Source of the DNA: Candidatus Pacearchaeota archaeon
GTDB lineage: Archaea; Nanobdellota; Nanobdellia; Pacearchaeales; GW2011-AR1
Direction: 5' to 3'
DNA: 64,000 nucleotides
Assembly (NCBI GenBank): GCA_018304045.1
Contig: JAGVWZ010000009.1
Coordinates: 13-64,012, forward strand
Below are positions 10,476 through 42,511 of this stretch, piece by piece. The position numbers and the translations under genes are program-made. The notes beneath the pieces were generated by a model. The model worked only from the letters and a program-made list of their open reading frames with translations, did no database searches and was not told the DNA's origin. The first letter of the stretch is position 1. Each line of letters opens with the position of its first letter.

Positions 10476-10871
10476 ATGAGATATCCAATAGATGAATTGA
10501 TTGATAAAAGATCAATAATCCAATTGAAAATAGAAAGGATTGGAGATAATTCTGCTAAAGAAAGAGAAAATCTTAGGAGAGAATTTCAAGACTATACTGA
10601 TGCTATTTCAGAATATGTTTCTGAAGGAGTTTGTACTGCTGAACAAGCTGAAGAATGGCATGAAAGATTATACAAGGCAAATGGAACTACTTGGGATCTT
10701 GAAACAAAGATAAGAAGAGGTCAATTAGAGGAAATAAGTCTTGAAGAAGTTGGAAGAACAGCTATTGCAATTAGAGAATCAAATGGAGTCAGAGTTAGAA
10801 TCAAAGCAGAGATTGTTTCTGCAACAGGTATTGGATATAAAGATGTTAAAATAAATCATGCATCTGAATAA
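10476..10871 (+). CDS. hypothetical protein, DUF4254-like
   Basis: 131 aa. The WDLETKIRRG...EVGRTAIAIRESNGVRVRIKAEI pattern resembles DUF4254. Higher GC than neighbours. Its stop directly abuts the stop of the convergent radical SAM gene. Confidence 0.5.
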   Translation: MRYPIDELIDKRSIIQLKIERIGDNSAKERENLRREFQDYTDAISEYVSEGVCTAEQAEEWHERLYKANGTTWDLETKIRRGQLEEISLEEVGRTAIAIRESNGVRVRIKAEIVSATGIGYKDVKINHASE

Positions 10872-12245
10872 TTATAAACTAAATCCAAATAATCTTTCAT
10901 CTGCTTTTTTTCTAAATTCTTTGTATGCTTTTCTATAGGCAATATCAACAACACTGTTTGGAGCATCAATCATTACTTGAGAAAGTCCAAGTCTATGCAA
11001 TTCAGGATATTCAACAAATATGGCAAAAAGTCTTTGCAAATTTGAAAGTTGATTTTTATAAGTTTCTGGAAAATTAAGTTTAGATGAATCAAAAAAATTA
11101 GCAGCTAAATCTTTAAAATCTCCTGTATAAAATCCTTGCTGCTTAGAATGCTCACCTAAAGAAGTTCCTGGATAGGGTTGAAAAATTGAAACCCATGCAT
11201 AATCTGGATTGCACCTAATATTCATTTCAAGAGTTGAAATATCTTTTTCTATTGAACCTCCTGGCAAACCTATTATGTTTTGAAGCATAAATCTTATTCC
11301 CTTTGATTTTAACATGTCGCAGGCAGCATAAATCTGTTCTTTGGACATTCTTCTTTTAAGCACTTCATTTCTTAAAAAATCATCAGCTGTTTCTGCTGCT
11401 ATATGCACACTATAACATCCTGCATTTTTTAAAAGATTAATTTTTTCTTCATCAATTGTATTTGGCCTTACATGACAATGGAATGGAAGATTTACTTGCC
11501 TTGAATAAAGTTCTGAGAATTGTCTTAACCAATCTCTGTTTAAGGTAAAAGTATCATCTTGAAAATATACAAATTTTGTTGGAGATTTACCTGTAACCTC
11601 TACAACTTCTGCAACTACACTTTCTACATCTCTGAATCTGACTCTCTTACCTTTTCCAGAATATAATTCTGCATATTGTTCATTAAAACAATAGGCACAG
11701 GAAAATGGACAACCTCTTGATGCTAAAAAATGTTTAATTGGACCATCTCCAACACCTGTAAAATTAGTAATTAAATCCCTGTCTGGAAATGCCAAATTAT
11801 CTAAATCTGAAAATGGTCTTAAATCATTTCTTTGTATTGTTCCATTTAAATTAAAAGATAAATTTGGAATATTAGTTACAGGCTGTCCTTTTTGAAGTTT
11901 ATCCAAGAGTTCTGCAAAAGCTTCTTCACCTTCTCCCTTACAGATAACATCTACTCCGGGTTCTTCGACAAGTTGTGGAAAAAAAGTTGGATGTGGTCCA
12001 CCAAATATTGATAAAAAATTATGAGCTGCTTTAAGTCTTTGATTCAAAGAAACATACATATCTTGATCTCCTGTCATAACACTATAACCTATTACTTGTG
12101 GTTTAAACTCTTTAACTACTGTTTCTAAATTATCAGAAGTTGTTACAAGTTTGGTTTCATGACCTGCTCTTTTAGCTGAAGCTGATAAGTACATTAATCC
12201 TAATGGCTCCATAAAAAATGGTTTGGAAATAAATAATGCTTTCAT
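10872..12245 (-). CDS. cobalamin-binding-domain (class B) radical SAM protein
   Basis: 457 aa. N-terminal B12-type Rossmann domain (GYSVMTGD, FGGPHPTFFP, ICKGEGE) followed by SRGCPFSCAYCFN (CxxxCxxC). Paralogue of 19581..21056. Confidence 0.85.
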   Translation of the reverse strand: MKALFISKPFFMEPLGLMYLSASAKRAGHETKLVTTSDNLETVVKEFKPQVIGYSVMTGDQDMYVSLNQRLKAAHNFLSIFGGPHPTFFPQLVEEPGVDVICKGEGEEAFAELLDKLQKGQPVTNIPNLSFNLNGTIQRNDLRPFSDLDNLAFPDRDLITNFTGVGDGPIKHFLASRGCPFSCAYCFNEQYAELYSGKGKRVRFRDVESVVAEVVEVTGKSPTKFVYFQDDTFTLNRDWLRQFSELYSRQVNLPFHCHVRPNTIDEEKINLLKNAGCYSVHIAAETADDFLRNEVLKRRMSKEQIYAACDMLKSKGIRFMLQNIIGLPGGSIEKDISTLEMNIRCNPDYAWVSIFQPYPGTSLGEHSKQQGFYTGDFKDLAANFFDSSKLNFPETYKNQLSNLQRLFAIFVEYPELHRLGLSQVMIDAPNSVVDIAYRKAYKEFRKKADERLFGFSL

Positions 12246-12313
12246 GTCAATCTTATTATATGGACTATATTGAAAGAAATGGATTTATAATCTTTATGGA
12301 TTTTAAGAATAAT

Positions 12314-12976
12314 TTATTTTTTCTTAGCTATCACCACAACTAATCTTGAAAATAAACTTGGATATATTTTTGCTAGTGGTTTGATTATTAGGTCTAAAAA
12401 ATAAAAAAAATCACTTGTTTTGCCAGTAGTTGATTGCCAGATTGGAATTACTTCTAAAATCTCAACTTTTTTTGAAAGTAAATTTATTATGTCACACACC
12501 CTTGGTTTATGTATGTGCCCTAATTTTTCTACTACTTCTAGATTAATTTCGATTATGTCTCTTTTTATTCCAAATAAATGAATCAATCTTTGCCAGAAAT
12601 TGTATTCATTTGGCATGGATATTATCAAAAATCCATTATCTTTTGTGACCCTTATAAGTTCGTCAATGACTTTATTAGGATATAACACATGTTCAAGTGT
12701 TTCAAGACAAACTGTGACATCAAAGGTCTTAGCTTTAACTGGAATTTTCCTTTTATTTAAATCACAGTTATAATCTCCTTGTCCATCCATATCAAGTGAC
12801 TTGCATTCTACATTTGGAGGAACTATTTTTTTTAACTTGTCATCCTGAGAACCTACATCAATAACCTTAATTTTCCCTTTAAATTTTGATACAAATTGTA
12901 GGACAACCCAGTATTGGGCAAAACTACGTTTTACTAATTTAAGAGTTTCAGTTTTAGAATTAGAATCATCTTTCAT
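12314..12976 (-). CDS. class I SAM-dependent methyltransferase
   Basis: 220 aa with VIDVGSQDD, CLETLEHV and GFLIISMPNE motifs. Its start overlaps the upstream gene's stop. Confidence 0.75.
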   Translation of the reverse strand: MKDDSNSKTETLKLVKRSFAQYWVVLQFVSKFKGKIKVIDVGSQDDKLKKIVPPNVECKSLDMDGQGDYNCDLNKRKIPVKAKTFDVTVCLETLEHVLYPNKVIDELIRVTKDNGFLIISMPNEYNFWQRLIHLFGIKRDIIEINLEVVEKLGHIHKPRVCDIINLLSKKVEILEVIPIWQSTTGKTSDFFYFLDLIIKPLAKIYPSLFSRLVVVIAKKK

Positions 12977-14558
12977 GTTTTTTTAAATAATCTTTTTGGG
13001 CCTTTTTTTCCCTATGCATTTTAATAAGACGATTTGATAAGTTTTTAAATCCTACTTTTCTATAAACATAAAATCCATACTTTGCAACATGAAACATGTT
13101 CCTTATACTTGTATAAATTCCTCTTGGAAGCCAGGAAATAAATTCCAAATAAAGATTATATTTCATTGCAATTGAAATAATTTTTAGTAAATACCTGAAT
13201 TTTAATCTTGGTTCTGCAACTCCAAACAAAAACATGTAAAATGCTTTTTCAATCTCAAATTTTGTAAAAGTTGGTGTTTCTGACATAACTATTGGACATT
13301 CCAGTGGAGGTGTAACTGAAGACCCATATTCAAGTTCATTATAGATTATCCCATTATTTTTTTCTAGCCATTCTCTTGCAGGAGTATATCTAAATGGAAT
13401 AAATAAATTTAAGCTTACTTGATCTGCTTTTAATTTATTGCAAAGTTTTATAGAATCTTTTGTTCTTTCAAGACTGTCTCCTGGAAGACCTATAATAAAT
13501 GAAACACTTAATCGAATCCCATATTTTTTTATTAATCTGCAGGCTTCTTCAATCTGTTCAAAGGTTTCACCCTTATTTGCCATTTTAAAAACCTCTGGAT
13601 TCCCATGTTCAACTCCTACTGAAAGAACACGACAATTACATTGTTTAATCAATTTTACTATTTCTTCATTAAGACTATCTGCACGAGTATTAACAATAAC
13701 AAGTTCTGAATTTATTTTCTCTATGTATAATTTTAAAAGATTAATAAAACGTCCCATATGGACTGTAGGACAATCATCAAATAATACAAATCTTAGATTA
13801 GGAGATATTTCTTTTTTTGCTAGTTCCATTTCTTTTATGCATTCTTCGGGTTTTCTTGGTCTCCAATACCTATAGGACAAACCTATAGATGCACAAAAAC
13901 TACATTTGTTTGGACAACCTCTTGAACTCATTATTGGATAACTTGTTATGTTCTGCCATCCATAAAAAGATTTATAATCTGAAAATGGAACTTTATATAA
14001 ATTGAGAATTTCTTTGGATTTTATAATTTTTGCAGTTCTTTGTTTTTTTGCATTTTCAACAACAGGAATTATTGTCAGTTCTGCTTCTCCAATAAATATG
14101 TAATCTATTCTTTTATCTTTCTTTAGCACATCTGAATACATTGATGCATGAGGGCCTCCAACCATTATTGGAATTTTTGGAGAAATCTCCTGGATTTTTT
14201 TTATTATATCATTTGCCTCTTTTGAACTTGGAGTATATATGCTGATTCCTATAATATCTGGCTTAAACATATTAATAAAAAACGAAACATCCTTGTCCCT
14301 ATCTTCAAATAAGAATGCAAAATCTACAACCAGCACTTCATGGCCTCTTTTTTTAAGGACTCCTGCAAGAGATGCAAGACCATTATGGGGAATCATAAAA
14401 ACAGTATCTTCTTTTTTAGGATTTATTAAAAGAATTCTTTTTGTTTTTTTAATTTTTTTTAAATTCTCCAAGTCTGATGATTTTAAGTATTTTAATTTCA
14501 TAATATTTTTTCTACCATTTTTATGTTTAGAATGTATTTTATTCACAAAAAATATCAA
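12966..14558 (-). CDS. cobalamin-binding-domain (class B) radical SAM protein
   Basis: 530 aa. B12-type motifs IGISIYTPS, VGGPHAS and FIGEAE, plus SSRGCPNKCSFCAS. The start could instead be the internal M20 (14501). Confidence 0.8.
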   Translation of the reverse strand: MIFFVNKIHSKHKNGRKNIMKLKYLKSSDLENLKKIKKTKRILLINPKKEDTVFMIPHNGLASLAGVLKKRGHEVLVVDFAFLFEDRDKDVSFFINMFKPDIIGISIYTPSSKEANDIIKKIQEISPKIPIMVGGPHASMYSDVLKKDKRIDYIFIGEAELTIIPVVENAKKQRTAKIIKSKEILNLYKVPFSDYKSFYGWQNITSYPIMSSRGCPNKCSFCASIGLSYRYWRPRKPEECIKEMELAKKEISPNLRFVLFDDCPTVHMGRFINLLKLYIEKINSELVIVNTRADSLNEEIVKLIKQCNCRVLSVGVEHGNPEVFKMANKGETFEQIEEACRLIKKYGIRLSVSFIIGLPGDSLERTKDSIKLCNKLKADQVSLNLFIPFRYTPAREWLEKNNGIIYNELEYGSSVTPPLECPIVMSETPTFTKFEIEKAFYMFLFGVAEPRLKFRYLLKIISIAMKYNLYLEFISWLPRGIYTSIRNMFHVAKYGFYVYRKVGFKNLSNRLIKMHREKKAQKDYLKKHER

Positions 14559-14841
14559 TCATTTGGGTTTAAAAAGATTATTATAAAATCACAGTAGATA
14601 ACTATTTCAGAGAATTGGGTTTTAAAAATTGGTATCCTATCAAGTTAATTCAAAAACTTACATATAAGTTTTTCTAAAAGTTAGTTTAATTAGTAGGCAA
14701 AGCAAGGTTGCATTTATAACAAAATATATATTCACATCCATCTTATTTGATTTAAAGAAGTCATTACTTGTAATGACCTTCCCATAGATATTTTGACATT
14801 ACTTATCATGCTCAAAAAAACAAATGTTCATCTAATGATAA

Positions 14842-15978
14842 TTAGAATAATGATTCTATTTTTTCTATAACTCTATCCCAAGCAAACTGCTGGACAGATA
14901 ATTTTGCTTGTTTTTTTAGTTCATTATTCTTAATACTGTCTTCCAGGGCAGAATCTATTTTTTCTGCAAGTGACCTTGGATTGTCAAATTCAAATAAGTA
15001 GCCATTATTATCATTTATCAAGTCTCTAATCGCTATGCTACTGCTTCCTATTACTATTTTTCCACGAGACATTGCTTCTATGAGCGCCTGAGGCATTCCT
15101 TCTACTCTTGAGGGAAGGACAAATACTCTTGCAGAATCAATCTTTTTTATTTTTTCTTTGATATCATATATTGGCTCTGAAATTAATATTCTGTCAGATA
15201 TGTGAAGTTCATTTATCATTGATTTAATTTTATTAAAATATTCTTCTTCTCTTGGACCTACAATTTCAATTTTTATTTTTTTATCTTTAATAAAAGGCAC
15301 TGCTGCAATAAGGGTCTCAACTTTTTTCTTAGGAGATATTCTGCTAAAAAAAAGAATTTTATTTTCTTCTCTTGTTTGTTGTTTTAAATTAAAAAATTCC
15401 ATAGGTATACCATTTGGAATATAAACTATATTCTCTTTTGGAGCTCCTGCTTTGATTAGATAAGGTATTTCCCAATGAGAAATTGCTAATATTTTATCAA
15501 ATTTTTTAAGGCTCATTGGACCTATAAATCTGTCATAAAATTTAACAATTATTGTTGCTAATTTAGAACGAGTAATATTTCCTTCTACAAATGGGGCATG
15601 GGTTACAAGAAATAATTTTACTTTTTTTCCCCTCTGCCTTAGCTTTTTACTTATTTTAATTGATAAATGCGTATGTGTATGGCGATAATTATGGGTGATT
15701 ATTATGTCTGGTGAATAATCAAGAGCTTCTTTTTCAAAATCCCAATTCATAAAACTTTCTCCGCCTAATTTTTTTGCTGGAAACCTTAGTATGGATATTC
15801 CATTTAATGATTCGTTTTCAGGAAGTATTCTATCTGAGCCTTTTTCAAAATAGGAAGAAAATACTCTTACTTCATAACCTCTTTTAACTAATTCTAAGGA
15901 TTCTTGTTTTACTCTTGCCCATACTCCACACCCACCTGATGAATAAGGGCATATTTCTAGTATTTTTAGTTTGGGCAT
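14842..15978 (-). CDS. GT4 family (GT-B) glycosyltransferase
   Basis: 378 aa. C-terminal SRVEGMPQALIEAMSRGKIVIGS is a GT4 E-x7-E type motif. Confidence 0.85.
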   Translation of the reverse strand: MPKLKILEICPYSSGGCGVWARVKQESLELVKRGYEVRVFSSYFEKGSDRILPENESLNGISILRFPAKKLGGESFMNWDFEKEALDYSPDIIITHNYRHTHTHLSIKISKKLRQRGKKVKLFLVTHAPFVEGNITRSKLATIIVKFYDRFIGPMSLKKFDKILAISHWEIPYLIKAGAPKENIVYIPNGIPMEFFNLKQQTREENKILFFSRISPKKKVETLIAAVPFIKDKKIKIEIVGPREEEYFNKIKSMINELHISDRILISEPIYDIKEKIKKIDSARVFVLPSRVEGMPQALIEAMSRGKIVIGSSSIAIRDLINDNNGYLFEFDNPRSLAEKIDSALEDSIKNNELKKQAKLSVQQFAWDRVIEKIESLF

Positions 15979-15979
15979 A

Positions 15980-16501
15980 TTATTTTATCACTTCTAATTT
16001 AAAATATAAATCCTGAACAGGAAGAAATTTCCTTAAAATTATTTCATGTATTTTTGGAAATAGATTTGAAATTCCCTGAAATATTTTAAAAACACTTCCA
16101 TAGATTATTTTTCTTTCAATTATGTTAAATCTTGCTTTTGTGTAAAAATTATAATCAAAATCTTTTGTAAAGTAGTCCATGGAATAGTAGGAGAAAAAAA
16201 TTCTATGGGTTGGATCTTTAAAAGCTCCTAGAGAAGCAAAATGAGGAACTCTTATTTCAATTATTGCATTATTTTTGCATATCCTATGTATTTCTTCCAT
16301 TACTTTTATAAGATTTTCAAGATGCTCTAATGTTGAAATTGAAATAATATATTCAAAAGAATTATCTTTAAATGGCCATGGAAATTTATCCAGATTATGA
16401 ACTATATCTACTCCTGGAAGTTTGACAGAATCAAGATTAATAAATCCTTGTCTTATGTCTGTTCCACATCCTAAGTGAAGTTTATTAGACTTATTTATCA
16501 T
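15980..16501 (-). CDS. SAM-dependent methyltransferase (type 11)
   Basis: 173 aa with LHLGCGTDIRQGFINLD and STLEHLENL motifs. Confidence 0.75.
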   Translation of the reverse strand: MINKSNKLHLGCGTDIRQGFINLDSVKLPGVDIVHNLDKFPWPFKDNSFEYIISISTLEHLENLIKVMEEIHRICKNNAIIEIRVPHFASLGAFKDPTHRIFFSYYSMDYFTKDFDYNFYTKARFNIIERKIIYGSVFKIFQGISNLFPKIHEIILRKFLPVQDLYFKLEVIK

Positions 16502-16594
16502 GGAATAATTGATGAAAAGAGGTTTAAAATATTATCGGAACTAGGTTATAATAATACATAAAAACTTTTAAAGGGTTTTAAACATTTCATAAAT

Positions 16595-17770: not shown

Positions 17771-17814
17771 TAAATCATAATTAAGTTTAAAAAGAAAATC
17801 AAGCTGGATTTTTT

Positions 17815-22964: not shown

Positions 22965-23019
22965 ACATATAAATATTTTTAAATGAATAAATAGTTTATT
23001 TTTTAAGAGAAAACAAGAA

Positions 23020-23886: not shown

Positions 23887-23910
23887 AATCACTAAACTTT
23901 TTAGGATTAT

Positions 23911-30731: not shown

Positions 30732-30867
30732 AATAAGATTATTCTTTAAGTTTGATTATTGTTAATGTAAAAAGTATATAAAATAATTACAAGTAATTAT
30801 TAATATCAATTAGATATAGGCTTAAAATGTAGGATATTAAGCTAAATATTTAATAAAAATATTAGGA

Positions 30868-32892: not shown

Positions 32893-32940
32893 TTAGTAAG
32901 ATATCTTTTATGACATATTGAGTTTTTCAGTCATTTTGAA

Positions 32941-34724: not shown

Positions 34725-34794
34725 TTTTTATTCACTAATTTTATTAAATCAGAAAAATATTGTTTTTAAAGATTGTTAGTCAAAATAATATATA

Positions 34795-36264: not shown

Positions 36265-36314
36265 TGGTTTATATCTCCTTAGTTAGTTAAAAACATTATT
36301 ATAATTATTTGTTA

Positions 36315-37280
36315 TCAAAGACTTGGATCATTTCTACAATAGTCTAACAAATGATTAACACTTTGTTCAAAAGTATACCTTGGTTTCCAACCTGTTTCTC
36401 TTCTAAACTTAGTTGTATCTGGAATTTGTAAAGTTACATCTGTAGGCCTAAGAAGTTTTGGATCGATTCTTGATGGAATTGGGCATTTTGCTAAACTTTT
36501 TAAAACATCTAAAAATTCTCCTACTTTAATTACAGTATCTCCCCCTATATTATATACTTCTCCTGGTTTTCCTTTTTCAGTAGCATACCAATAGGATTCC
36601 ATTGCATCTCTAACATCAATCATTGTTCGAACAGAATCAAGATTACCATGTAATAATTCTGGTTGATGCCCTCTTTCAATCCTGACAACCTGTCTTGCAA
36701 ATGCAGTTGAAAATAAATCAGTTCTTCTTGGATTTAAATAAGAAAACATCCTTGTCCTGATAACATTTAAACCATAATTCTCATAATAAACACTGCCGAG
36801 TAAATCCTGTGTTGTTTTTGAAACAGCATAGGGATTTGCAGGAGCTATTGGACATTCTTCTATGATTGGAACATTTTCAGGTTTAACAAGACCATATACT
36901 TCAGAAGTACTGCATAATTGAATTATTGGATGAATATCTGTACATTTAATTGCTTCTAAAAGATTTGCAGTTCCCATTATATTATTTTGTAAAACTGAAA
37001 GTGGAACATCAAAACAAGCTCTTACATTTGCATGTGCTGCTAAATGAAAAATATAATCTGGATTTATTTCATTTAATCTCCTGAATACTGAACTAAAATC
37101 ATTTAAATCACATTCATGAACCTGAACTTTATCTGCAATTGCTTCAAGATTTTTATTAGAAGTAGTACTATGCCATCTTGAAATCCCATGCACTTCTATT
37201 TCTGGATGACTTTCAACAAGATATTCTGCAAGATAGCTTCCTCCAGAACCTGTTATTCCAGTTATTAACGCCCTTTTCAT
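36315..37280 (-). CDS. NAD-dependent nucleotide-sugar 4,6-dehydratase/reductase (GDP-mannose 4,6-dehydratase family)
   Basis: 321 aa with ITGITGSGGSYLAEYL (GxxGxxG), CSTSEVYG and the YAVSK catalytic dyad. Confidence 0.8.
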   Translation of the reverse strand: MKRALITGITGSGGSYLAEYLVESHPEIEVHGISRWHSTTSNKNLEAIADKVQVHECDLNDFSSVFRRLNEINPDYIFHLAAHANVRACFDVPLSVLQNNIMGTANLLEAIKCTDIHPIIQLCSTSEVYGLVKPENVPIIEECPIAPANPYAVSKTTQDLLGSVYYENYGLNVIRTRMFSYLNPRRTDLFSTAFARQVVRIERGHQPELLHGNLDSVRTMIDVRDAMESYWYATEKGKPGEVYNIGGDTVIKVGEFLDVLKSLAKCPIPSRIDPKLLRPTDVTLQIPDTTKFRRETGWKPRYTFEQSVNHLLDYCRNDPSL

Positions 37281-37362
37281 AGTAGGAGTTAAAAAAGATT
37301 GATTTTTAAAGATTGTTATGATGCTCTACAGGGTTAAATTCTCTAAGAATATAATTAATGAA

Positions 37363-38937
37363 TTAGTGATTTGTGAGACTTAATAATTTTCTTTTAATTG
37401 AATTAAATATCATAAAATCATTTTTATCAAAACATCCAGTAAATAGTATTAAAATAATATAAGCTATTGCAAAGGTAATACCTATAATTAACAGAATAAA
37501 TAGATTTACACTTATAACTTTACTTATAATATAAACTGGAATCACCAATATCATTGTGACTATGAAAATCTTTATCATATCTCTTTTAAATGGAATTATT
37601 GAAATATAATGTCTCACTTGTAACACTAACAATATATTAAATATGATGACAGATATCATTGTTGCAATTGCTGCACCTGTGATTCCATAGGAATTATCAA
37701 TAAATCCTATTGTTTTCATAGGAATCAATATAAGGTTTAAAACTAAATTAATAACAGACGCGAGGATTATATCAAATAAAATAAGTTTTGATTTTCCAAT
37801 CATTAACAGAAGATTATTAGATATTGAAAATAGAGAAAAGAACAGGCATGATATTGAAAGGAATCTAAGGGCATTTTCAGCAACTAAATATTCTGGCCCA
37901 AATAAAATGTTAATAAATACTCCTGGAAAAAGAATTATTAAGACAAGCATTGGAAGGTTGATTATCCAAACCCATTTTCCTACTTGTTTGCTTAGGTCTT
38001 CAATCAAAGATAATTTTTTTTGAGAATAATACTTTGTTACTAATGGAAAAAAAAGCTGAATAAAAATTTCTGAGGATAGCGTGAGTATTGCAGCTATTGG
38101 AAGTGCAGCATTATAAAACCCTACTTCTCTTACTCCTTTAAAATATCCTATTAAAAAAGAATCAATCCAATAAAAGAGACTTGAAACAACTCCAAAAAAC
38201 ATTATTGACCAAGAATATGAAAATAAATTTTTGAATAGTTTTTTTCCTTTTTCCCCTAAATTTGATTTTTTGAATATTTCTGGAAATTTGAATTTGCAAT
38301 AAAAATAAGCTGATAAAAATACTATCAGAGTTCCGATAAAAAATGAAGAAATAACTGCCCCATTTTTTAATCCTATCCATATTAATAAAGCAAGCACTAT
38401 TAATTTTGAAGCATTTTGAACAATATTGAATATGAAAGAGTATGCTGAAATTTTTTCATAGGCGCGTATTATTGCTAAAAAAAGACTTGAAAAAATCCAT
38501 ATTGGCAAAAGAATGCTAAAAATTCTAAGATAAATTATTAATTCTGAATTATGAAATATATTAATAGAAAGATATCTAGAAAACAAAAACAATAGAACTG
38601 CTGCTGAAATTGAAGAAATTAATAATATTAGTGATGTTTTTCTAAAAAGATGATTTATTTTACCCTTGCTATTCTTTAATCTATAAAAAGAAATATATCT
38701 TAATAATCCTTCTGCAAGACCTAATGAAAAAAATGCTGCAAACAATCCTAAAATCATAGACGCTAAAGAAAAAAGACCATATACTTCTGAGCCTAAATAT
38801 CTTGCAATCAGTATTCTATAAAGATATGTTACTACCTTGGATATAACTATTCCAAAAAATACTATAAAAGATGTTTTTACTAATAATTTTAAAGAATCAT
38901 CCAGTGCTATTGCTTTATTTTTTTTTGTTTCTTTCAT
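37363..38937 (-). CDS. MOP-superfamily polysaccharide flippase (Wzx-like)
   Basis: 524 aa, about 14 TM. Typical polysaccharide biosynthesis protein topology. Confidence 0.8.
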   Translation of the reverse strand: MKETKKNKAIALDDSLKLLVKTSFIVFFGIVISKVVTYLYRILIARYLGSEVYGLFSLASMILGLFAAFFSLGLAEGLLRYISFYRLKNSKGKINHLFRKTSLILLISSISAAVLLFLFSRYLSINIFHNSELIIYLRIFSILLPIWIFSSLFLAIIRAYEKISAYSFIFNIVQNASKLIVLALLIWIGLKNGAVISSFFIGTLIVFLSAYFYCKFKFPEIFKKSNLGEKGKKLFKNLFSYSWSIMFFGVVSSLFYWIDSFLIGYFKGVREVGFYNAALPIAAILTLSSEIFIQLFFPLVTKYYSQKKLSLIEDLSKQVGKWVWIINLPMLVLIILFPGVFINILFGPEYLVAENALRFLSISCLFFSLFSISNNLLLMIGKSKLILFDIILASVINLVLNLILIPMKTIGFIDNSYGITGAAIATMISVIIFNILLVLQVRHYISIIPFKRDMIKIFIVTMILVIPVYIISKVISVNLFILLIIGITFAIAYIILILFTGCFDKNDFMIFNSIKRKLLSLTNH

Positions 38938-38995
38938 GTTTGTAAATAATATAAATATTCAAGTATAAAAAGTAAAAACCCCTTTAATTAACTTA

Positions 38996-40561
38996 CTATC
39001 TCTCCTTGCTCAATTTCTCTAAAGTTAAATACAAACTTAATAAAAAATTTCTGTTATCTGATTTTATATAAAACATTTCCCTAGCACCCATTCTATCAAA
39101 ACTCTTGCAGAATCTTTCATAGTATTCTGGATTGGTTTTATTTGGTTCTAAATTTTTTCCAAAATCCCAACTAGATGCTTTAATATCATTTACTACTATT
39201 AAAAAATCATTTATAGTTTTATTATCTTGGAGTTTAGTATTTCTTGCCATTGAAAGAGCTTTTTCAAAAATCATTGGGGACATAATTGCAGAGCCTATTG
39301 AAATATAAACCCCTCCTTCTAAATTAGAAACACTTTCTACAAATTTCAGAAAATCAATTTCAGAAGTTTTTCCTATTGAAGCTCCATCTGATAATGGATG
39401 AGTATAAATTATATCATATCCAAATCCTGGATGTATTGTAAATGGTATTTTATTAAAAAATGCAGATTCTTGTATACTAAACTGTTTAAATGGATGAATT
39501 AATTTGAAGTTTTCTGTTATTTTATGGTTTTTTAATTTATTTAATAGAGAGATATTATTTATTTCTGGAATTATTATTTCTTCTTTATGAATCATCTCTC
39601 CTATGGATTCACCATAACCTTTTTCCCTTAAAGCTCCGGATATTAATGCAAGATTAATGTATTTTCCTGTTTCTTCCCAGATTCCAAATTGACCTGAGAT
39701 GATATTTTCCCTTACATCTTCTTCTGATTTTCCAATGAATGAAAATTCCCAATCATGAATTGAACCTGCTCCGTTTGTGGCTAAATGTGTAACATATCTT
39801 TTTTCAATCATTTTTCTTAATATAGGAGAAAGTCCATTTTTAATTAAATGAGCTCCAAAAGCTATAATTATAGATTTATTGTTCTTCTTTGCATCTAAAA
39901 TATTTTCAGCCATAATCTCTATTTTTTTATCATCTATTAAATCAAAATTCTCATATTTATCTTCATTCATTGCTATCTTAATTATGTCAGATTTACTTTT
40001 CCTTTCTAAAATAGATTTAAATTTTATTTTTTCTCGATTAAATAATTTATTATTCAGAATTACCTTTGAACATTCAAGTAAATCTTTGAATTTTTTTAGA
40101 TTATCCTCTTTATTATATTTTGAATCAATTAATAGGGTTCTACACCCTGCAGTTTCTCCCATTTCAATGTCTTTTAATTTATCCCCAATCATCCAGGATT
40201 CTCTTAAATTAATAGAATAATCTTTTTCAGCTTGTTTAAGAAAGAGAATGTTTGGTTTTCTACAGATACAATTTTCTTCTGGAGAATGTGGACAAAAATA
40301 AACTTTTTCAATAATTATTTTTTCTTTTTTAAATATTTCTAACATATGTTCATTTAATTTATTAAATTCATCTAGAGAATAATATCCTCTCCCTATTCCA
40401 GATTGATTTGTTACTATAAATAATTTGAAGCCATTTGATTGCAGAATTCTTAGGGATTCAAAAACATTTGGAAGAAACTCAAAATCTTGAATTTTTGAAA
40501 CATAACCTGTGTCCTTATTTATAACCCCGTCCCTATCCAAAAATACAGCCTTATTTTTCAT
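38996..40561 (-). CDS. gmhB: D,D-heptose 1,7-bisphosphate phosphatase (GmhB, HAD-IIIA) fused to an uncharacterised ~330-aa C-terminal domain
   Basis: 521 aa. N-terminus AVFLDRDGVINKD, TNQSGIGRG, CPHSPEENCICRKP and GDKLKDIE. The C-terminal domain (GAHLIKNGL...HLATNGAGSIHDWEF) has no assignment I can make. Confidence 0.75.
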   Translation of the reverse strand: MKNKAVFLDRDGVINKDTGYVSKIQDFEFLPNVFESLRILQSNGFKLFIVTNQSGIGRGYYSLDEFNKLNEHMLEIFKKEKIIIEKVYFCPHSPEENCICRKPNILFLKQAEKDYSINLRESWMIGDKLKDIEMGETAGCRTLLIDSKYNKEDNLKKFKDLLECSKVILNNKLFNREKIKFKSILERKSKSDIIKIAMNEDKYENFDLIDDKKIEIMAENILDAKKNNKSIIIAFGAHLIKNGLSPILRKMIEKRYVTHLATNGAGSIHDWEFSFIGKSEEDVRENIISGQFGIWEETGKYINLALISGALREKGYGESIGEMIHKEEIIIPEINNISLLNKLKNHKITENFKLIHPFKQFSIQESAFFNKIPFTIHPGFGYDIIYTHPLSDGASIGKTSEIDFLKFVESVSNLEGGVYISIGSAIMSPMIFEKALSMARNTKLQDNKTINDFLIVVNDIKASSWDFGKNLEPNKTNPEYYERFCKSFDRMGAREMFYIKSDNRNFLLSLYLTLEKLSKER

Positions 40562-41960
40562 TGTTTTCTTTTATTTTTTTAATTGTATTTGTTGTGGATT
40601 TGTTTGGGACGTTAATGCCTAAGATTATTTTTCCATTATAACTTTCAACTACTTTTCTTTCTTCTTGATTTATGGTGTTTATATTGTAATCCCCCCCTTT
40701 AACATAGAAATCTGGTTTTAATATTGCTAAGTAATCCTTAACACCTTGATAGGGATATATGATAACATAGTCTATAAATCCCATTCCAGCAAGTATTTCT
40801 GCTCTGTCTAATTCTGTGTTGATTGGTCTTTCAGGACCTTTTAATCTTCTTATAGAATCATCAGAATCTATTCCCACAATTAAAATATCTCCTAATTTTT
40901 TTGCTTCTTTTAAATATTTTAAATGACCTATGTGGAGAATATCAAAACATCCATTGGTCCAAACTATTTTTTTATTTTTTATTTTATAATCATGAACGAG
41001 TTTTTTTAGTTCTTCTAATTCAACAATTTTTCTTTCTTTAGATGCAATCCTACTCCTTAATTCACTTAATAATACTGAATAGGTTCCTTTTTTTTCAACT
41101 GCTATTCCTGCTGCATAGTTTGCAATTATTGCTGCTTCTTCCAAAGAAGCTTTTGAAGAAATTGCTAATGAAAGTGTGGCTATGACTGTATCTCCTGCAC
41201 CGCTAACATCATAAACCTCTCTTGCAAAAGTAGGAATCTCCACTAAATTTTCTTTTGAAAAAATAAGCATTCCTTTTTCACCTATAGTAATAAGTATGTT
41301 TGAATCTAATTCATCCATTAATTTTTTTCCAGCTTCTTTTATATCGCTTAGTCCTGTCATTTCTTTTGCTTCTTTTTCATTTGGTTTTATTAAAAAAAAT
41401 CCTTTAAAGAGATGAATGTGTTTTGGCTTAGTATCTACTATTGTTTTTGATTTAAAGGGGAAGATTAAATCAACTAAATCTTTTGTTATTGTTCCTTTGA
41501 GATAATCAGAGACTATTATAATATCTGATTTTTCTGCTTCGCTTAATATTTTTTTCTTTGTTTCTTTTGAAAAAAATTTTTCATTTATATCTTCTTGATC
41601 CATTCTTATTATTTGCTGATTTTTGCAACAAATTCTTGATTTGGTTATTGTTGAATGATTTTCATCCAAAGAACAATTAATATTCTTTTCTTTACATAAT
41701 TTTTTTAATATTTCTGCATGATTATCTTTTCCAACAAAAGCAAATAAAGTAACATTTCCTTTTAATGAAACTATATTTGAAGCTACATTTCCAGAACCAC
41801 CTAAATCATAGGTTTCATCAGTTACATTTAAAATTGGAACTGGTGCTTCAGGACTAATCCTTGAAATATTTCCATAGACATATTTATCTAGAATTAAATC
41901 TCCAATTACTAATATTTTTTTATTTTCAAAACTTGACATTATTTTATCAAAACCATTCAT
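40551..41960 (-). CDS. hldE: bifunctional heptose 7-P kinase / heptose 1-P adenylyltransferase (HldE/RfaE)
   Basis: 469 aa. PfkB kinase domain (ILVIGDLILDKYVYG, GAGDT) plus cytidylyltransferase fold (TNGCFDILHIGHLKYL). Confidence 0.9.
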   Translation of the reverse strand: MNGFDKIMSSFENKKILVIGDLILDKYVYGNISRISPEAPVPILNVTDETYDLGGSGNVASNIVSLKGNVTLFAFVGKDNHAEILKKLCKEKNINCSLDENHSTITKSRICCKNQQIIRMDQEDINEKFFSKETKKKILSEAEKSDIIIVSDYLKGTITKDLVDLIFPFKSKTIVDTKPKHIHLFKGFFLIKPNEKEAKEMTGLSDIKEAGKKLMDELDSNILITIGEKGMLIFSKENLVEIPTFAREVYDVSGAGDTVIATLSLAISSKASLEEAAIIANYAAGIAVEKKGTYSVLLSELRSRIASKERKIVELEELKKLVHDYKIKNKKIVWTNGCFDILHIGHLKYLKEAKKLGDILIVGIDSDDSIRRLKGPERPINTELDRAEILAGMGFIDYVIIYPYQGVKDYLAILKPDFYVKGGDYNINTINQEERKVVESYNGKIILGINVPNKSTTNTIKKIKENNEK

Positions 41961-42511
41961 ATTAAACCTGCCTCTACTTTATCTGCTAGATTATGTATTA
42001 AAAATAATTGTATTTCCTGTATTCTTGCTGTTTCTTCAGATCTTGATTTAATTATAAAATCTGAAACTCCTTCAAGTTTATTTGATTTGTTTCCTGTAAA
42101 AGATATTACAATGCATTTTAGTTCTTTTGCTGTTTTTGCAGCATTAACAAGATTTTCTGAATTTCCAGATGTTGTTAATAATATTAAAATGTCCCCTGAT
42201 TTTGCTAATCCTTCTATTTGTCTTGAGAAAATCTGTGAAAAAGAGTAATCATTTGAACATGCTGTTAAAACAGATGTATCTGTGGTTAAGGAGATTGCAG
42301 GAATTGATTTTCTTTCTCTTTTAAAACGAATTATTAATTCAGCTGCAAAATGCTGAGATTCTGCTGCAGAACCGCCGTTCCCACAAATCATAATTTTATT
42401 TCCATTTTTAACTGAGTCTATTATTATATTTGCTATTTCTTCTATTTTGTCTGATTCAAATTTTAAGGTTTCTTCTAAACCAGAAATAAGGTTTTTGGCA
42501 TTATTTAACAT
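41957..42511 (-). CDS. gmhA: phosphoheptose isomerase (SIS domain)
   Basis: 184 aa with ICGNGGSAAESQHFAAEL and LLTTSGNSENL motifs. Confidence 0.9.
   Translation of the reverse strand: MLNNAKNLISGLEETLKFESDKIEEIANIIIDSVKNGNKIMICGNGGSAAESQHFAAELIIRFKRERKSIPAISLTTDTSVLTACSNDYSFSQIFSRQIEGLAKSGDILILLTTSGNSENLVNAAKTAKELKCIVISFTGNKSNKLEGVSDFIIKSRSEETARIQEIQLFLIHNLADKVEAGLI

What the first reader, a model, noticed from the sequence alone, without database searches (positions are those of the whole stretch)
10476..42511. 32-kb glycan-tailoring supercluster with seven radical SAM enzymes (five cobalamin-type)
About 30 genes between the AglB core and secDF are devoted to sugar activation and tailoring. 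Five encode class B radical SAM proteins with an N-terminal B12-type Rossmann domain followed by an (S/M)(R/G)GCPxxCxxC motif: 10872-12245, 12966-14558, 19581-21056, 26173-27783 and 34795-36264. Two more are radical SAM proteins with Cys-rich SPASM/twitch-like tails: 23020-23886 and 25114-26178. They are interleaved with three SAM methyltransferases, about four GTs, a Wzx-like flippase, an ALS/YerE-like ThDP enzyme, a split transketolase, two PLP enzymes, a kinase and a PHP phosphoesterase. To my knowledge, characterised archaeal agl/S-layer glycan loci do not combine this many radical SAM enzymes with two independent C2-transfer enzymes. Class B rSAM precedents include C-methylation of unactivated carbons (GenK, Fom3) and sugar ring chemistry (calditol synthase). 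The product is therefore plausibly a heavily C-alkylated, branched or carbocyclic higher sugar on the cell-surface glycan. 10872-12245 and 19581-21056 are clear paralogues on opposite strands (LASRGCPFSCAYCFNEQY vs FISRGCPYSCTYCFNDSF).
Basis: partly seen in the sequence, partly recalled or inferred. Interest (0 to 1): 0.85.

Follow-up and report, generated by a model that had tools for sequence, protein, structure and literature searches.

The report
Radical-SAM-rich branched-heptose glycan island
A tiny groundwater archaeon (Pacearchaeota) carries a 40-kb surface-glycan gene island with seven radical SAM enzymes, two of them paired with thiamine-dependent carbon-carbon-bond-forming enzymes; these uncharacterised pairs recur and are sometimes fused in many uncultured microbes, and they probably build unusual carbon-branched heptose sugars.

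Summary
Pfam finds five B12-binding plus Radical_SAM proteins and two further radical SAM proteins at the stated coordinates. They sit among glycan genes in a Candidatus Pacearchaeota (DPANN) genome.

None of the five reaches the curated cut-off of any characterised family, including HpnJ, BchE, PhpK and MiaB.

- A full heptose-nucleotide pathway: GmhA, HldE, a GmhB fusion and an HddC-HddA fusion.
- The DegT-type "PLP enzyme" has His in place of the catalytic Lys, which is the ColD/E1 3-dehydratase signature.
- The ALS-like enzyme is closest to JanthE, a characterised YerE-like branching enzyme.

The main new result is that two of the B12-type radical SAM (rSAM) enzymes each belong to a conserved pair with a thiamine diphosphate (ThDP) enzyme. 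These pairs recur in DPANN, CPR bacteria, Desulfuromonadota, Deferrisomatales and Aureabacteria. They also occur as fusion proteins (rSAM5 plus an E1 PP domain).

My best reading is this pathway: GDP-heptose, then a 4,6-dehydratase, then a 3-dehydratase, then ThDP-catalysed C-branching, then radical tailoring. Assembly, Wzx flipping and AglB transfer follow. The actual radical chemistry is not resolved; it could be C-methylation, or AprD4/HpnJ-like dehydration or rearrangement.

The locus type is recurrent rather than unique. I found no paper that describes it.

The parts
2090..4888 (+). AglB/STT3 oligosaccharyltransferase. It lies upstream of the finding but is part of the same island.
   Evidence: Pfam STT3 43 bits and STT3-PglB_core 24.8 bits. 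WWDYG motif at residue 633.
4974..5990 (+). Initiating sugar-1-phosphate transferase (Glycos_transf_4, AglH/WecA type).
   Evidence: PF00953, 101.8 bits.
5974..10398 (.). GtrA-like protein (5974-6390 +), GT2 (6380-7078 -), SAM methyltransferase (7193-7960 +), PMT_2-like membrane glycosyltransferase (7950-9476 -) and GT2 (9511-10398 -).
   Evidence: Pfam hits.
10476..10871 (+). 131-aa coiled-coil-like protein with no family assignment.
   Evidence: Only a sub-threshold ERM_helical hit.
10872..12245 (-). B12rSAM1, a class B-type radical SAM protein and paralogue of B12rSAM3.
   Evidence: PF02310 66.6 bits and PF04055 82.6 bits. 38.8% identical to 19581-21056. No NCBIfam cut-off reached.
12314..12976 (-). 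Class I SAM methyltransferase. It overlaps B12rSAM2 by 11 nt and is probably co-translated with it.
   Evidence: Methyltransf_23/11. A B12rSAM2-like protein fused to a class I MT exists (P0366, 758 aa). A 50%-identical orthologue lies in L007.
12966..14558 (-). B12rSAM2, class B-type radical SAM. The true start is probably Met20, at 14501.
   Evidence: PF02310 68.5 bits and PF04055 86.4 bits. The family is mostly archaeal. The Methanobacterium homologue sits between two GT4 genes, with a GT2 two genes downstream. N-terminus checked.
14842..16501 (-). GT4-family glycosyltransferase (14842-15978) and a small SAM methyltransferase (15980-16501).
   Evidence: Pfam.
16595..17770 (+). Class I/II (aspartate-type) aminotransferase. 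I propose it supplies the 2-oxo-acid donor for the YerE-like enzyme.
   Evidence: PF00155 213 bits. Best NCBIfam hits are aspartate aminotransferase and GntC, both below cut-off. The position directly upstream of the ThDP gene is conserved in L023 (68% identity). A 74%-identical fragment lies at the edge of L011, where no ThDP homologue was detected.
17815..19584 (+). YerE-like ThDP carboligase (three-domain, ALS-like fold).
   Evidence: TPP_enzyme_N/M/C. Below every ALS equivalog cut-off. Best PDB hit is JanthE 8RPH at 357 bits, against at most 275 bits for ALS. JanthE is a characterised YerE-like enzyme. GDG...N motif at residue 450.
19581..21056 (+). B12rSAM3, class B-type radical SAM. It overlaps the YerE-like gene by 4 nt.
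   Evidence: Pfam. Homologues follow a YerE-like gene in L023, follow a split TK directly in L022 and L045, and follow a split E1 with one GT2 gene between in L021. A fusion with GT2 exists (P0233). AF2 model pLDDT 91.6, with a generic class B fold.
21046..22964 (+). APH-family kinase (21046-22011) and PHP-domain phosphoesterase (22008-22964). Substrate unknown.
   Evidence: PF01636 42 bits and PF02811 56 bits. The kinase is conserved in L023 at 47% identity.
23020..23886 (+). Radical SAM protein (288 aa) with a Cys-rich tail.
   Evidence: PF04055 45.7 bits. Orthologues next to rSAM3 in L023 (64%) and L021 (44%). Cys at 210, 226, 254, 260, 263 and 278.
23911..25074 (+). Gtf3_C-type glycosyltransferase.
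   Evidence: Precomputed PF26337. Weak NCBIfam galactofuranosyltransferase hits. 50% orthologue in L007.
25114..26178 (+). Radical SAM/SPASM protein. It may be a BtrN-like sugar dehydrogenase.
   Evidence: PF04055 78.9 bits and SPASM 31.4 bits. Best PDB hits are BtrN (38.7 bits) and the cytosylglucuronate decarboxylase BlsE (26.9 bits). Orthologues in L023 (53%), L012/L013 (47-52%) and L021 (39%).
26173..27783 (-). B12rSAM4, class B-type radical SAM.
   Evidence: Pfam. 51-54% orthologues lie between secD/hyp136 and Wzx in L011-L013.
27839..29464 (-). 541-aa Glyco_trans_1_2 (CgeB-like) glycosyltransferase. It belongs to the conserved rSAM5-TK module.
   Evidence: PF13524 87 bits. 36-53% orthologues lie beside the TK/rSAM5 genes in L007, L009, L011-L013 and L015 by BLAST. 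A Glyco_trans_1_2 gene of 555-557 aa holds the same position in L042 and L044 (Pfam only).
29601..30731 (+). ColD/E1-type PMP-dependent NDP-4-keto-6-deoxy-sugar 3-dehydratase (DegT fold with Lys replaced by His185).
   Evidence: PF01041 310 bits. Top NCBIfam hit is RfbH. His185 aligns to K186 of GDP-perosamine synthase. The same His is present in the DegT genes beside rSAM5 homologues in L017-L020.
30868..32892 (-). HddC-HddA-like fusion: a sugar-1-P guanylyltransferase domain plus a GHMP heptose-7-P kinase domain.
   Evidence: NTP_transferase and GHMP_kinases_N/C. HddA 235 bits and HddC 174.5 bits, both below equivalog cut-offs.
32941..34724 (-). Split transketolase-like ThDP enzyme: TK_N at 33849-34724 and TK_C at 32941-33873. 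It is the partner of B12rSAM5.
   Evidence: Pfam. Best PDB hit is the Carboxydothermus split TK 6YAK/6YAJ. H66 to Q, S385 to P and H461 to G in the window and its DPANN/CPR orthologues; H461 to G in every clade member examined. Adjacent to rSAM5 homologues in at least 8 further loci.
34795..36264 (-). B12rSAM5, class B-type radical SAM, HpnJ/AprD4-like.
   Evidence: Pfam. HpnJ 169 bits against a cut-off of 578. 57-65% identical orthologues in Pace-, Woese- and Nanoarchaeota and a CPR bacterium, with a Heimdallarchaeota-labelled hit among them. Fusions to E1_dh or Pyr domains. AF2 pLDDT 90.6; top fold match is AprD4, TM 0.74/0.80.
36315..37280 (-). GMD-like NDP-sugar 4,6-dehydratase (short-chain dehydrogenase/reductase, SDR).
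   Evidence: GDP_Man_Dehyd 236 bits. gmd 161 bits, below cut-off. STSE at residue 124 and YAVSK at 151.
37363..38937 (-). Wzx-type flippase.
   Evidence: Polysacc_synt 94 bits. 44-50% orthologues in the DPANN islands.
38996..40561 (-). GmhB heptose-1,7-bisphosphate phosphatase fused to a GSU2086-family domain of unknown function.
   Evidence: TIGR00213 153.5 bits (cut-off 149.6) and NF052581 311 bits (cut-off 250).
40551..41960 (-). HldE-like bifunctional heptose-7-P kinase and heptose-1-P adenylyltransferase.
   Evidence: PfkB and CTP_transf_like. HldE 424 bits against a cut-off of 521.
41957..42511 (-). GmhA-like sedoheptulose-7-P isomerase.
   Evidence: SIS_2 98 bits. gmhA 179 bits against a cut-off of 209.

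Best explanation
This is the cell-surface (Agl-type) glycan biosynthesis island of a Pacearchaeota archaeon.

Proposed pathway (steps inferred from family assignments unless marked otherwise):
1. GmhA, GmhB and the two kinase/nucleotidyltransferase enzymes (HldE, HddC-HddA) make ADP- and GDP-glycero-manno-heptose.
2. A GMD-like 4,6-dehydratase and a ColD-like 3-dehydratase (His in place of Lys) convert a GDP-sugar, most likely GDP-heptose, to a 3,6-dideoxy-4-keto intermediate.
3. Two ThDP enzymes add an acyl or ketol branch to a sugar carbonyl. One is the YerE-like carboligase, whose 2-oxo-acid donor is supplied by the adjacent aminotransferase. The other is the non-canonical split transketolase.
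4. Each ThDP enzyme works as a pair with a class B-type radical SAM enzyme (rSAM3, rSAM5). That enzyme either elaborates the new branch or a neighbouring carbon by radical C-methylation, or makes or rearranges the deoxy-keto sugar as AprD4 and HpnJ do.
5. The remaining radical SAM enzymes (rSAM1, 2, 4, the BtrN-like SPASM protein and the 288-aa protein) and the SAM methyltransferases tailor further.
6. GTs assemble the glycan on a lipid carrier, Wzx flips it, and AglB transfers it.

Shown here: gene content, domain and motif assignments, conserved pairing, and fusions.
Inferred: substrates, order of steps, radical chemistry, and the final acceptor.
For: Domain and motif evidence:
- Five B12-binding plus rSAM proteins and two further rSAM proteins.
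- GmhA, HldE, GmhB and HddC-HddA.
- STSE and YxxxK motifs in the GMD-like SDR.
- His185 replaces the catalytic Lys in the DegT homologue.
- The ThDP enzyme is closest to the YerE-like JanthE. YerE-type enzymes use NDP-4-keto-3,6-dideoxy sugars as acceptors.

Conserved pairing:
- rSAM5 homologues at 51% identity or more lie beside a split TK in Pace-, Woese- and Nanoarchaeota, a CPR Paceibacterota and a Geopsychrobacteraceae chromosome.
- That chromosome holds a contiguous operon: HddC, HddA, DegT(His), SDR, TK_N, TK_C, rSAM5. GmhB and GmhA lie nearby.
- rSAM3 homologues lie next to a ThDP enzyme of one of three types. They follow a YerE-like gene in L023 and a split TK in L022 and L045. In L021 they follow a split E1 with one GT2 gene between.

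Fusions:
- rSAM5 plus E1_dh PP domain: P0123, P0138, and P0394 at 187 bits.
- A weak Pyr-like domain plus rSAM5: P0090.
- rSAM3-like plus GT2: P0233.
- rSAM2-like plus methyltransferase: P0366.

Transketolase active site: in the window and its DPANN/CPR orthologues, H66, S385 and H461 are replaced. H461 is replaced in every clade member examined. The cofactor and catalytic residues are kept.

Fold and sequence neighbours: the rSAM5 fold is closest to the sugar diol dehydratase AprD4. The SPASM protein is closest to BtrN and BlsE, both sugar-modifying rSAMs.

Assembly genes: AglB with WWDYG, an initiating transferase and Wzx are all present.
Against: - No biochemical data exist for any of these proteins, and no product is known.
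- Most heptose enzymes score just below the NCBIfam equivalog cut-offs.
- No YerF-type branch reductase was identified.
- The DPANN relatives L011-L013 carry the rSAM5-TK module without heptose or ColD-like genes within 10 kb. Their DegT genes keep the Lys. The acceptor sugar may therefore differ between lineages.
- The window has only one 3-dehydratase for two ThDP enzymes.
- Cobalamin binding cannot be judged. AprD4, the nearest fold to rSAM5, does not use cobalamin (from my own knowledge).
- The fold search for rSAM3 does not discriminate between methylases and AprD4.
- The fused E1-type PP domain is not orthologous to the window's TK_N.
Confidence: 0.55

Rival explanations
1. Plain methylated heptoglycan. 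The split transketolase only supplies sedoheptulose-7-phosphate. The ALS-like enzyme and the aminotransferase are metabolic passengers. The five B12-type rSAMs are simple C- or O-methylases that act on ordinary heptose or hexose residues, with no ThDP-dependent branching.
For: TK_N is about 50% identical to a functional split transketolase (6YAK, 244 bits). It keeps the cofactor and catalytic residues and two of the four phosphate-binding residues. Heptose loci do recruit S7P-supply enzymes; a transaldolase sits beside GmhA and GmhB in L022. Structural neighbours of rSAM3 include the methylases TsrM, MgmA, CysS and TokK.
Against: rSAM5 is fused to ThDP PP or Pyr domains in several lineages. 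The TK pairing persists in a CPR cassette with no heptose-activation genes. H66, S385 and H461 are replaced in the window and its closest clade members. rSAM3 homologues pair with E1-like and YerE-like enzymes, which cannot make S7P. The ThDP enzyme is YerE-like rather than ALS, and its canonical acceptor-forming enzymes are in the locus.
Confidence: 0.2
2. Glycolipid or lipid head-group pathway. The HpnJ-like rSAMs make a carbocyclic (calditol- or cyclitol-like) head group, or otherwise modify membrane lipids, rather than a protein-linked glycan.
For: HpnJ is the top NCBIfam hit for four of the five B12-type proteins, at 97-169 bits. B12-type rSAMs do modify archaeal tetraether lipids (papers found). 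Nothing in the sequence fixes the final acceptor.
Against: All scores are far below the HpnJ cut-off of 578. No lipid biosynthesis genes lie in the island. The locus has Wzx, AglB, an initiating transferase and many GTs. Homologues sit in O-antigen-like sugar-nucleotide operons in bacteria.
Confidence: 0.1
3. Secondary-metabolite (aminoglycoside- or nucleoside-antibiotic-like) gene cluster rather than a cell-surface glycan locus.
For: The nearest solved relatives of several enzymes come from antibiotic pathways: AprD4, BtrN, BlsE, TokK and CysS.
Against: The position between AglB and secDF is syntenic in many DPANN genomes. Wzx and five or more GTs are present. No resistance, regulator or exporter genes typical of antibiotic clusters were seen. 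Solved rSAM sugar enzymes come mostly from antibiotic pathways, so the nearest-hit bias is expected.
Confidence: 0.05

Closest known systems
Acyl-branched 3,6-dideoxy sugar pathways (yersiniose A via YerE/YerF; erwiniose via ErwE; caryophyllose and gastriose via MyGE-type enzymes)
   Same: The locus has a nucleotidyltransferase, a 4,6-dehydratase, a PMP-type 3-dehydratase with His in place of Lys, and a YerE-like ThDP carboligase. This matches the published scheme in PMC9306805.
   Different: The likely substrate is a GDP-heptose rather than CDP-glucose. No YerF-type reductase was found. There is a second, transketolase-type ThDP enzyme. Each ThDP enzyme is paired with a B12-type radical SAM protein, which has no counterpart in the published scheme. 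The host is an archaeon, with AglB.
GDP-D-glycero-alpha-D-manno-heptose and 6-deoxyheptose pathways (GmhA, HddA, GmhB, HddC, DmhA; Campylobacter capsule, Aneurinibacillus S-layer; from my own knowledge), and the ADP-heptose pathway (HldE)
   Same: GmhA, GmhB, HddA and HddC domains, HldE and a GMD-like dehydratase are all present.
   Different: The enzymes are fused in new ways: HddC-HddA with a CBS-like linker, and GmhB with a GSU2086 domain. Both ADP and GDP routes sit in one locus. Scores are just under the equivalog cut-offs. The downstream tailoring is by ThDP and radical SAM enzymes.
AprD4 (radical SAM 1,2-diol dehydratase of apramycin biosynthesis, PDB 6FD2)
   Same: It is the best fold match of rSAM5 (TM 0.74/0.80, E 1e-26) and the best PDB sequence match (81 bits). 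It acts on a sugar and produces a 3-deoxy-4-keto product, which is the kind of electrophile a ThDP enzyme needs.
   Different: Only about 21% identical. The NCBIfam AprD4 model scores 88 bits against a cut-off of 500. No AprD3-like partner is present. rSAM5 pairs with a ThDP enzyme instead.
HpnJ (hopanoid cyclitol-ether formation) and other class B radical SAM enzymes (TsrM, TokK/ThnK, CysS, GenK, Fom3, OxsB)
   Same: The architecture is the same: an N-terminal Rossmann B12-type domain followed by the rSAM barrel. HpnJ is the best profile hit for four of the five proteins. TsrM, MgmA, CysS and TokK are fold neighbours.
   Different: No family cut-off is reached. The genomic context is sugar-nucleotide and glycan genes, not hopanoid, peptide or beta-lactam genes. 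Conserved pairing and fusion with ThDP enzymes has not, as far as I could find, been described for any class B enzyme.
Split-chain transketolase (Carboxydothermus hydrogenoformans, PDB 6YAK/6YAJ)
   Same: Two-gene PP and Pyr/C architecture. 244 and 144 bits. The ThDP motif and catalytic His and Glu are kept.
   Different: H66 to Q, S385 to P and H461 to G in the window and its DPANN/CPR orthologues. H461 to G holds in all clade members examined, but H66 is kept in the Geopsychrobacteraceae member. The enzyme is always encoded beside, and in other lineages replaced by an E1-type domain fused to, a B12-type rSAM.

Membership tests
Class B (cobalamin-dependent) radical SAM enzymes | N-terminal B12-binding Rossmann domain (PF02310) followed by a radical SAM core (PF04055) with CxxxCxxC. 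| tested here: met
   All five proteins pass both Pfam gathering scores. Motif positions are given. AF2 models of rSAM5 and rSAM3 superpose on TsrM, TokK, CysS, OxsB and AprD4.
Class B (cobalamin-dependent) radical SAM enzymes | Actual binding and use of cobalamin. | not testable with these tools
   There is no universal sequence motif. The nearest fold to rSAM5, AprD4, has the domain but does not use cobalamin (from my own knowledge).
   Best scores are HpnJ 168.6/577.6 (rSAM5), BchE 141.9/481 (rSAM2), PhpK 105.8/600 (rSAM4) and AprD4 87.9/500 (rSAM5). No cut-off is reached for any of the seven rSAM proteins.
YerE-like ThDP carboligases | Three-domain ALS-like ThDP enzyme that is closer to characterised YerE-like enzymes than to acetolactate synthases. 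| tested here: met
   JanthE (8RPH) scores 357 bits against at most 275 bits for any ALS. All ALS equivalog cut-offs are missed. The alignment covers residues 2-560. JanthE is described as YerE-like in PMC12188165.
YerE-like ThDP carboligases | Co-located genes for an NDP-4-keto-3,6-dideoxy sugar acceptor (4,6-dehydratase plus 3-dehydratase). | tested here: met
   GMD-like SDR with STSE and YAVSK. DegT homologue with His185 in place of Lys. The scheme is set out in PMC9306805.
YerE-like ThDP carboligases | Adjacent YerF-type branch ketoreductase. | tested here: not met
   The island has only one SDR, and it carries dehydratase motifs.
ColD/E1-type PMP-dependent sugar 3-dehydratases | DegT fold with the Schiff-base Lys replaced by His. 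| tested here: met
   PF01041 310 bits. The FSFYAAH185LICCGEGG motif aligns to FSFFGNK186IITTGEGG of GDP-perosamine synthase 3BN1. E1 (171 bits) and ColD (151 bits) are among the PDB hits.
Heptose-nucleotide pathway (GmhA, GmhB, HldE, HddA/HddC) | All four activities present, with equivalog-level scores. | tested here: inconclusive
   All domains are present. GmhB passes (153.5 against 149.6). GmhA (179/209), HldE (424/521), HddA (235/600) and HddC (174.5/300) fall below their equivalog cut-offs.
Canonical transketolase | PP, Pyr and C domains with the ThDP motif and catalytic His and Glu. | tested here: met
   Pfam. H26, H100, D155, N185, H261, E411 and H473 are kept.
Canonical transketolase | Substrate phosphate- and hydroxyl-binding residues H66, S385 and H461 (E. 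coli TktA numbering; their roles are from my own knowledge). | tested here: not met
   Q, P and G at these positions in the window and its DPANN/CPR orthologues. H461 to G holds in all clade members examined, while H66 is kept in L017. The canonical split TK 6YAK/6YAJ keeps all three (alignments).
Archaeal Agl N-glycosylation locus | AglB with a WWDYG motif, plus an initiating transferase, GTs and a flippase in one locus. | tested here: met
   STT3 domains. WWDYG at residue 633. PF00953 transferase. Wzx.
AprD4-type radical SAM diol dehydratase | Family-level sequence membership and an AprD3-type reductase partner. | tested here: not met
   Fold similarity only. The NCBIfam AprD4 model scores 88 against a cut-off of 500. 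No partner reductase lies in the island.

The most novel reading that the evidence does not exclude
A ThDP enzyme plus a class B radical SAM enzyme form a previously undescribed two-enzyme unit. The unit is sometimes a single polypeptide and is interchangeable between TK-, E1- and YerE-type ThDP scaffolds. It builds extended carbon branches, or chain-extended or rearranged skeletons, on nucleotide-activated heptoses or hexoses. The result would be a new class of higher branched sugars on the surfaces of DPANN archaea, CPR bacteria and several anaerobic bacterial phyla. One possible mechanism is that the rSAM generates the deoxy-keto acceptor by AprD4-like dehydration. Another is that it iteratively methylates the ThDP-installed acyl branch.
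Probability: 0.35. Interest if true: 0.85.

Novelty: new variant of a known kind. Interest (0 to 1): 0.68.

Why it matters
DPANN archaea and CPR bacteria are thought to depend on attachment to a host cell, so their surface glycans are likely central to their biology. Almost nothing is known about those glycans.

This locus devotes about 7 kb of a small genome to five B12-type radical enzymes, and DPANN genomes are not known to encode cobalamin synthesis. That implies strong selection for an unusual sugar and a dependence on scavenged B12.

The conserved and sometimes fused ThDP-rSAM pair is a concrete, testable enzymology lead for how nature makes branched or higher-carbon sugars. It goes beyond the YerE scheme. 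It also occurs in larger bacterial genomes (Geopsychrobacteraceae, Deferrisomatales) whose lineages may be more tractable.

Such sugars could also serve as lineage-specific surface markers.

Tried and rejected
- Characterised non-sugar families. None reaches a curated cut-off, so it is rejected.
- Phosphonate pathway. The PhpK, Fom3 and Sden_1168 similarity raised this idea. No PEP mutase or phosphonopyruvate decarboxylase appears among the ORFs scanned between 104 and 48962, so it is rejected.
- RiPP maturation by the SPASM proteins. Their orthologues travel with GTs and the rSAM3 module, and the best solved hits are sugar enzymes. I did not run a dedicated small-ORF search for precursor peptides. 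I consider this unlikely.
- Housekeeping transketolase. Kept as a rival, but it is weakened by the fusions and the active-site substitutions.
- Metagenome scan for rSAM3 relatives. It gave mostly short contigs and added little beyond L025.
- Orthology of the fused domain. I first assumed the C-terminal domain of the fused proteins was orthologous to the window's TK_N. BLAST showed it is not; it is an E1-type PP domain.
- Literature. Ten searches found no description of rSAM-ThDP pairs, of B12-type rSAMs in Agl or O-antigen loci, or of this locus.
- Fold search of rSAM3. It does not discriminate between methylase and dehydratase relatives.

Full report
**Source and observation**

The window comes from a Candidatus Pacearchaeota (DPANN) genome from Rifle-type groundwater. 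NCBI proteins MBS30786xx match exactly. GC content is about 30%.

Between 10476 and 42511 there are 26 tightly packed ORFs, 96% coding. Pfam confirms five proteins with B12-binding plus Radical_SAM domains at the stated coordinates. It also confirms two more radical SAM proteins. One of these has a SPASM domain above threshold. The other has a Cys-rich tail below threshold. I call the five B12-type proteins rSAM1 to rSAM5, in coordinate order.

The claimed paralogue pair is real: 38.8% identity, E 1e-103. The other B12-type proteins are only 19-27% identical to each other, so they represent four separate lineages.

The gene inventory is slightly off. Two methyltransferases and three GTs lie inside the coordinates, and the rest lie upstream. 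The island actually begins at AglB (2090-4888, WWDYG motif). It also includes an initiating Glycos_transf_4 enzyme, GtrA, two GT2s, a PMT_2-like protein and another methyltransferase.

- The four genes at the secDF end, together with 30868-32892, encode a heptose-nucleotide pathway. Its parts are GmhA, HldE, GmhB fused to a GSU2086-family domain, and an HddC-HddA fusion. The "higher sugar" is therefore most simply glycero-manno-heptose, activated as both ADP- and GDP-heptose.
- The SDR at 36315-37280 has GDP-mannose-4,6-dehydratase-type STSE and YxxxK motifs.
- The DegT homologue at 29601-30731 has His185 where aminotransferases have the Schiff-base Lys. It aligns to K186 of GDP-perosamine synthase. 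This is the signature of the ColD/E1 3-dehydratases.
- The ALS-like ThDP enzyme misses every ALS cut-off. Its best solved relative is JanthE at 357 bits, against at most 275 bits for ALS. JanthE is a characterised YerE-like aldehyde-ketone carboligase.

Together these make up the published scheme for acyl-branched 3,6-dideoxy sugars: nucleotidyltransferase, 4,6-dehydratase, 3-dehydratase and YerE-like enzyme. That scheme covers yersiniose, erwiniose and caryophyllose.

**The radical SAM enzymes are not members of known families**

None of the seven reaches a curated NCBIfam cut-off. The best B12-type scores are HpnJ 169/578, BchE 142/481 and PhpK 106/600.

**Comparative genomics: the main new result**

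rSAM5 (34795-36264) belongs to a very conserved family.
- It is 57-65% identical across Pace-, Woese- and Nanoarchaeota and a CPR Paceibacterota, with a Heimdallarchaeota-labelled hit among them.
- It is 41-51% identical in Desulfuromonadota, Planctomycetota and Alphaproteobacteria.
- The family has 1,513 members at E 1e-30 or better in the 50%-representative library.

In every fetched locus whose homologue is at least 51% identical, a ThDP enzyme lies beside it. In most loci this is a split transketolase. In two loci (L007, L044) it is an E1-type PP domain fused to the rSAM. Where the flank is long enough, a roughly 550-aa Glyco_trans_1_2 GT, the orthologue of 27839-29464, usually lies there too.

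A Geopsychrobacteraceae chromosome has the contiguous operon HddC, HddA, DegT(His), SDR, TK_N, TK_C, rSAM5. GmhB and GmhA lie a few genes away. This is the same gene set as the window block 29601-37280.

In three further bacterial loci the rSAM5 homologue is less similar (40-49% identical). No TK was detected there, but a His-type DegT gene lies directly upstream in two of them and about 5 kb away in the third.

Fusion proteins support the pairing:
- rSAM5 with a C-terminal E1-type ThDP PP domain: P0123, P0138, and P0394 at 187 bits.
- In L044 the matching Pyr/C subunit is encoded immediately downstream.
- A weak Pyr-like domain sits in front of rSAM5 in P0090.

rSAM3 (19581-21056) overlaps the YerE-like gene by 4 nt. 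Its homologues follow a YerE-like gene in DPANN L023. They follow a split TK directly in Aureabacteria L022 and in L045. In Deferrisomatales L021 they follow a split E1 with one GT2 gene between. Orthologues of the 288-aa rSAM and of the SPASM rSAM travel with it in L021 and L023.

An rSAM3-like protein fused to GT2 exists (P0233), as does an rSAM2-like protein fused to a class I MT (P0366). The latter mirrors the overlapping rSAM2 and MT220 genes of the window.

rSAM4 orthologues lie between secD and Wzx in L011-L013. An rSAM2 homologue in Methanobacterium lies between two GT4 genes, with a GT2 two genes downstream. A metagenomic contig has four B12-type rSAMs interleaved with a GT2, plus two nucleotidyltransferase-type genes downstream.

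I conclude three things. All five families live in glycan contexts. Multi-rSAM glycan islands next to secDF are typical of this DPANN group. The ThDP plus B12-type rSAM pair is a recurrent functional unit.

**The transketolase is not canonical**

It is closest to the functional split TK of Carboxydothermus. It keeps the cofactor and catalytic residues and R358 and R520. In the window and its DPANN/CPR orthologues, H66 is replaced by Q, S385 by P and H461 by G. H461 to G holds in every clade member I examined, but the Geopsychrobacteraceae member keeps H66. The Carboxydothermus enzyme keeps all three residues.

From my own knowledge, S385 and H461 bind the substrate phosphate in E. coli TktA. 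This argues for an altered acceptor and against a pure sedoheptulose-7-P supply role. It does not exclude that role.

**What the radical enzymes do**

An AlphaFold model of rSAM5 (pLDDT 90.6) is closest to AprD4, with TM 0.74/0.80 and E 1e-26. MgmA, TsrM, CysS, OxsB and TokK follow at about E 1e-20. AprD4 is a radical SAM diol dehydratase that turns a sugar 3,4-diol into a 3-deoxy-4-keto sugar.

The rSAM3 model (pLDDT 91.6) matches TsrM, MgmA, AprD4, CysS and TokK about equally well.

The SPASM protein's best solved relatives are BtrN and BlsE, both sugar-modifying rSAMs. These matches are weak.

Two chemistries remain open for the paired rSAMs:
- Radical C-methylation or elongation of the ThDP-installed branch, by analogy to TokK and CysS.
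- AprD4- or HpnJ-like dehydration or rearrangement that makes or remodels the carbonyl acceptor.

I weight the two about equally. Neither can be settled by sequence.

**Mechanistic proposal**

1. S7P is converted to heptose-7-P by GmhA.
2. Heptose-7-P is converted to GDP-heptose by the HddA domain, GmhB and the HddC domain. HldE gives a parallel ADP-heptose route.
3. The GMD-like enzyme carries out 4,6-dehydration.
4. The ColD-like enzyme carries out 3-deoxygenation.
5. C-branching follows. It is done by the TK-like enzyme with rSAM5, and/or by the YerE-like enzyme with rSAM3. The adjacent aminotransferase makes the 2-oxo-acid donor for the YerE-like enzyme.
6. rSAM1, rSAM2, rSAM4, the two other rSAMs and the SAM methyltransferases tailor further.
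7. GTs assemble the glycan on a lipid carrier, Wzx flips it, and AglB transfers it.

The family assignments, motifs, synteny and fusions are shown. The substrates, the order of steps and the product are inferred.

**Caveats**

- Most heptose enzymes score just under the equivalog cut-offs.
- No YerF-type reductase was found.
- Close DPANN relatives carry the rSAM5-TK module without nearby heptose or ColD-type genes.
- The roles of the APH-family kinase, the PHP phosphoesterase and the GSU2086 domain are unknown.
- Cobalamin use is untested.

**Novelty**

Ten literature searches found no description of B12-type rSAMs in Agl or O-antigen loci, or of ThDP-rSAM pairs.

The locus is best filed as a new variant of the acyl-branched deoxysugar pathway. 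It is grafted onto heptose chemistry and coupled to radical SAM enzymes. It is not unique to this genome, and that makes it more testable, not less.

Noticed in passing
Homologues of window 34795-36264 (P0392, P0393, P0400, P0405, P0455, P0475, P0403): Many long members of the rSAM5 family carry inteins (Intein_splicing, PT-HINT, LAGLIDADG). They are inserted at two hot spots: just after the CxxxCxxC cluster motif (query residues ~225-245) and after residue ~355. The window copy has no intein.
   Followed up: partly
window 38996-40561 (-), residues 174-511: GmhB is fused to a 'GSU2086 family' domain (NF052581, 311 bits against a cut-off of 250) of unknown function. The only other hit is a weak ArgZ-like Rossmann match. 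The fusion suggests an undescribed step in heptose metabolism.
   Followed up: no
window 16595-23886 and 29601-37280: The two ThDP-rSAM modules have higher GC (0.327-0.328) than the rest of the island (0.265-0.29). This fits either horizontal acquisition or strong protein-level constraint. The encoded proteins are 45-65% identical to bacterial ones.
   Followed up: partly
window 12966-14558 (-): The TTG start at 14558 is probably too far upstream. Homologues align from about residue 36, and an ATG (Met20) lies at 14501. JGI calls a 526-aa product.
   Followed up: partly
window 42550-42960 (-): A 136-aa predicted membrane protein with no Pfam hit lies between secD and the glycan island. It is conserved there in other Pace- and Woesearchaeota at 31-33% identity.
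   Followed up: no
window 45756-47257: A 5S rRNA gene (47143-47257, +) stands alone, without 16S or 23S nearby. It is flanked by tRNA-Gly, tRNA-Arg and tRNA-Leu on the opposite strand.
   Followed up: no
L025 2173-9434 (metagenome contig SDBV01002864.1): Four B12-type radical SAM genes lie in a row, interrupted only by a GT2. An rSAM-SPASM gene and a methyltransferase precede them. An unassigned 547-aa ORF, an NTP-transferase and a UDPGP-like gene follow. This is an even denser example of the same theme.
   Followed up: partly
P0410 (1173 aa; homologue of window 34795-36264): A single polypeptide with two complete B12-binding plus Radical_SAM units in tandem.
   Followed up: no
window 21046-22964 (+): An APH-family kinase and a PHP phosphoesterase are translationally coupled to rSAM3 through 4-11 nt overlaps. 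The kinase is conserved in L023 but the PHP gene is not. This suggests a transient phosphorylation step on the branch donor or the sugar, but no substrate can be named.
   Followed up: partly
window 60710-63721 (-): A 1003-aa ORF near the end of the window was not examined.
   Followed up: no
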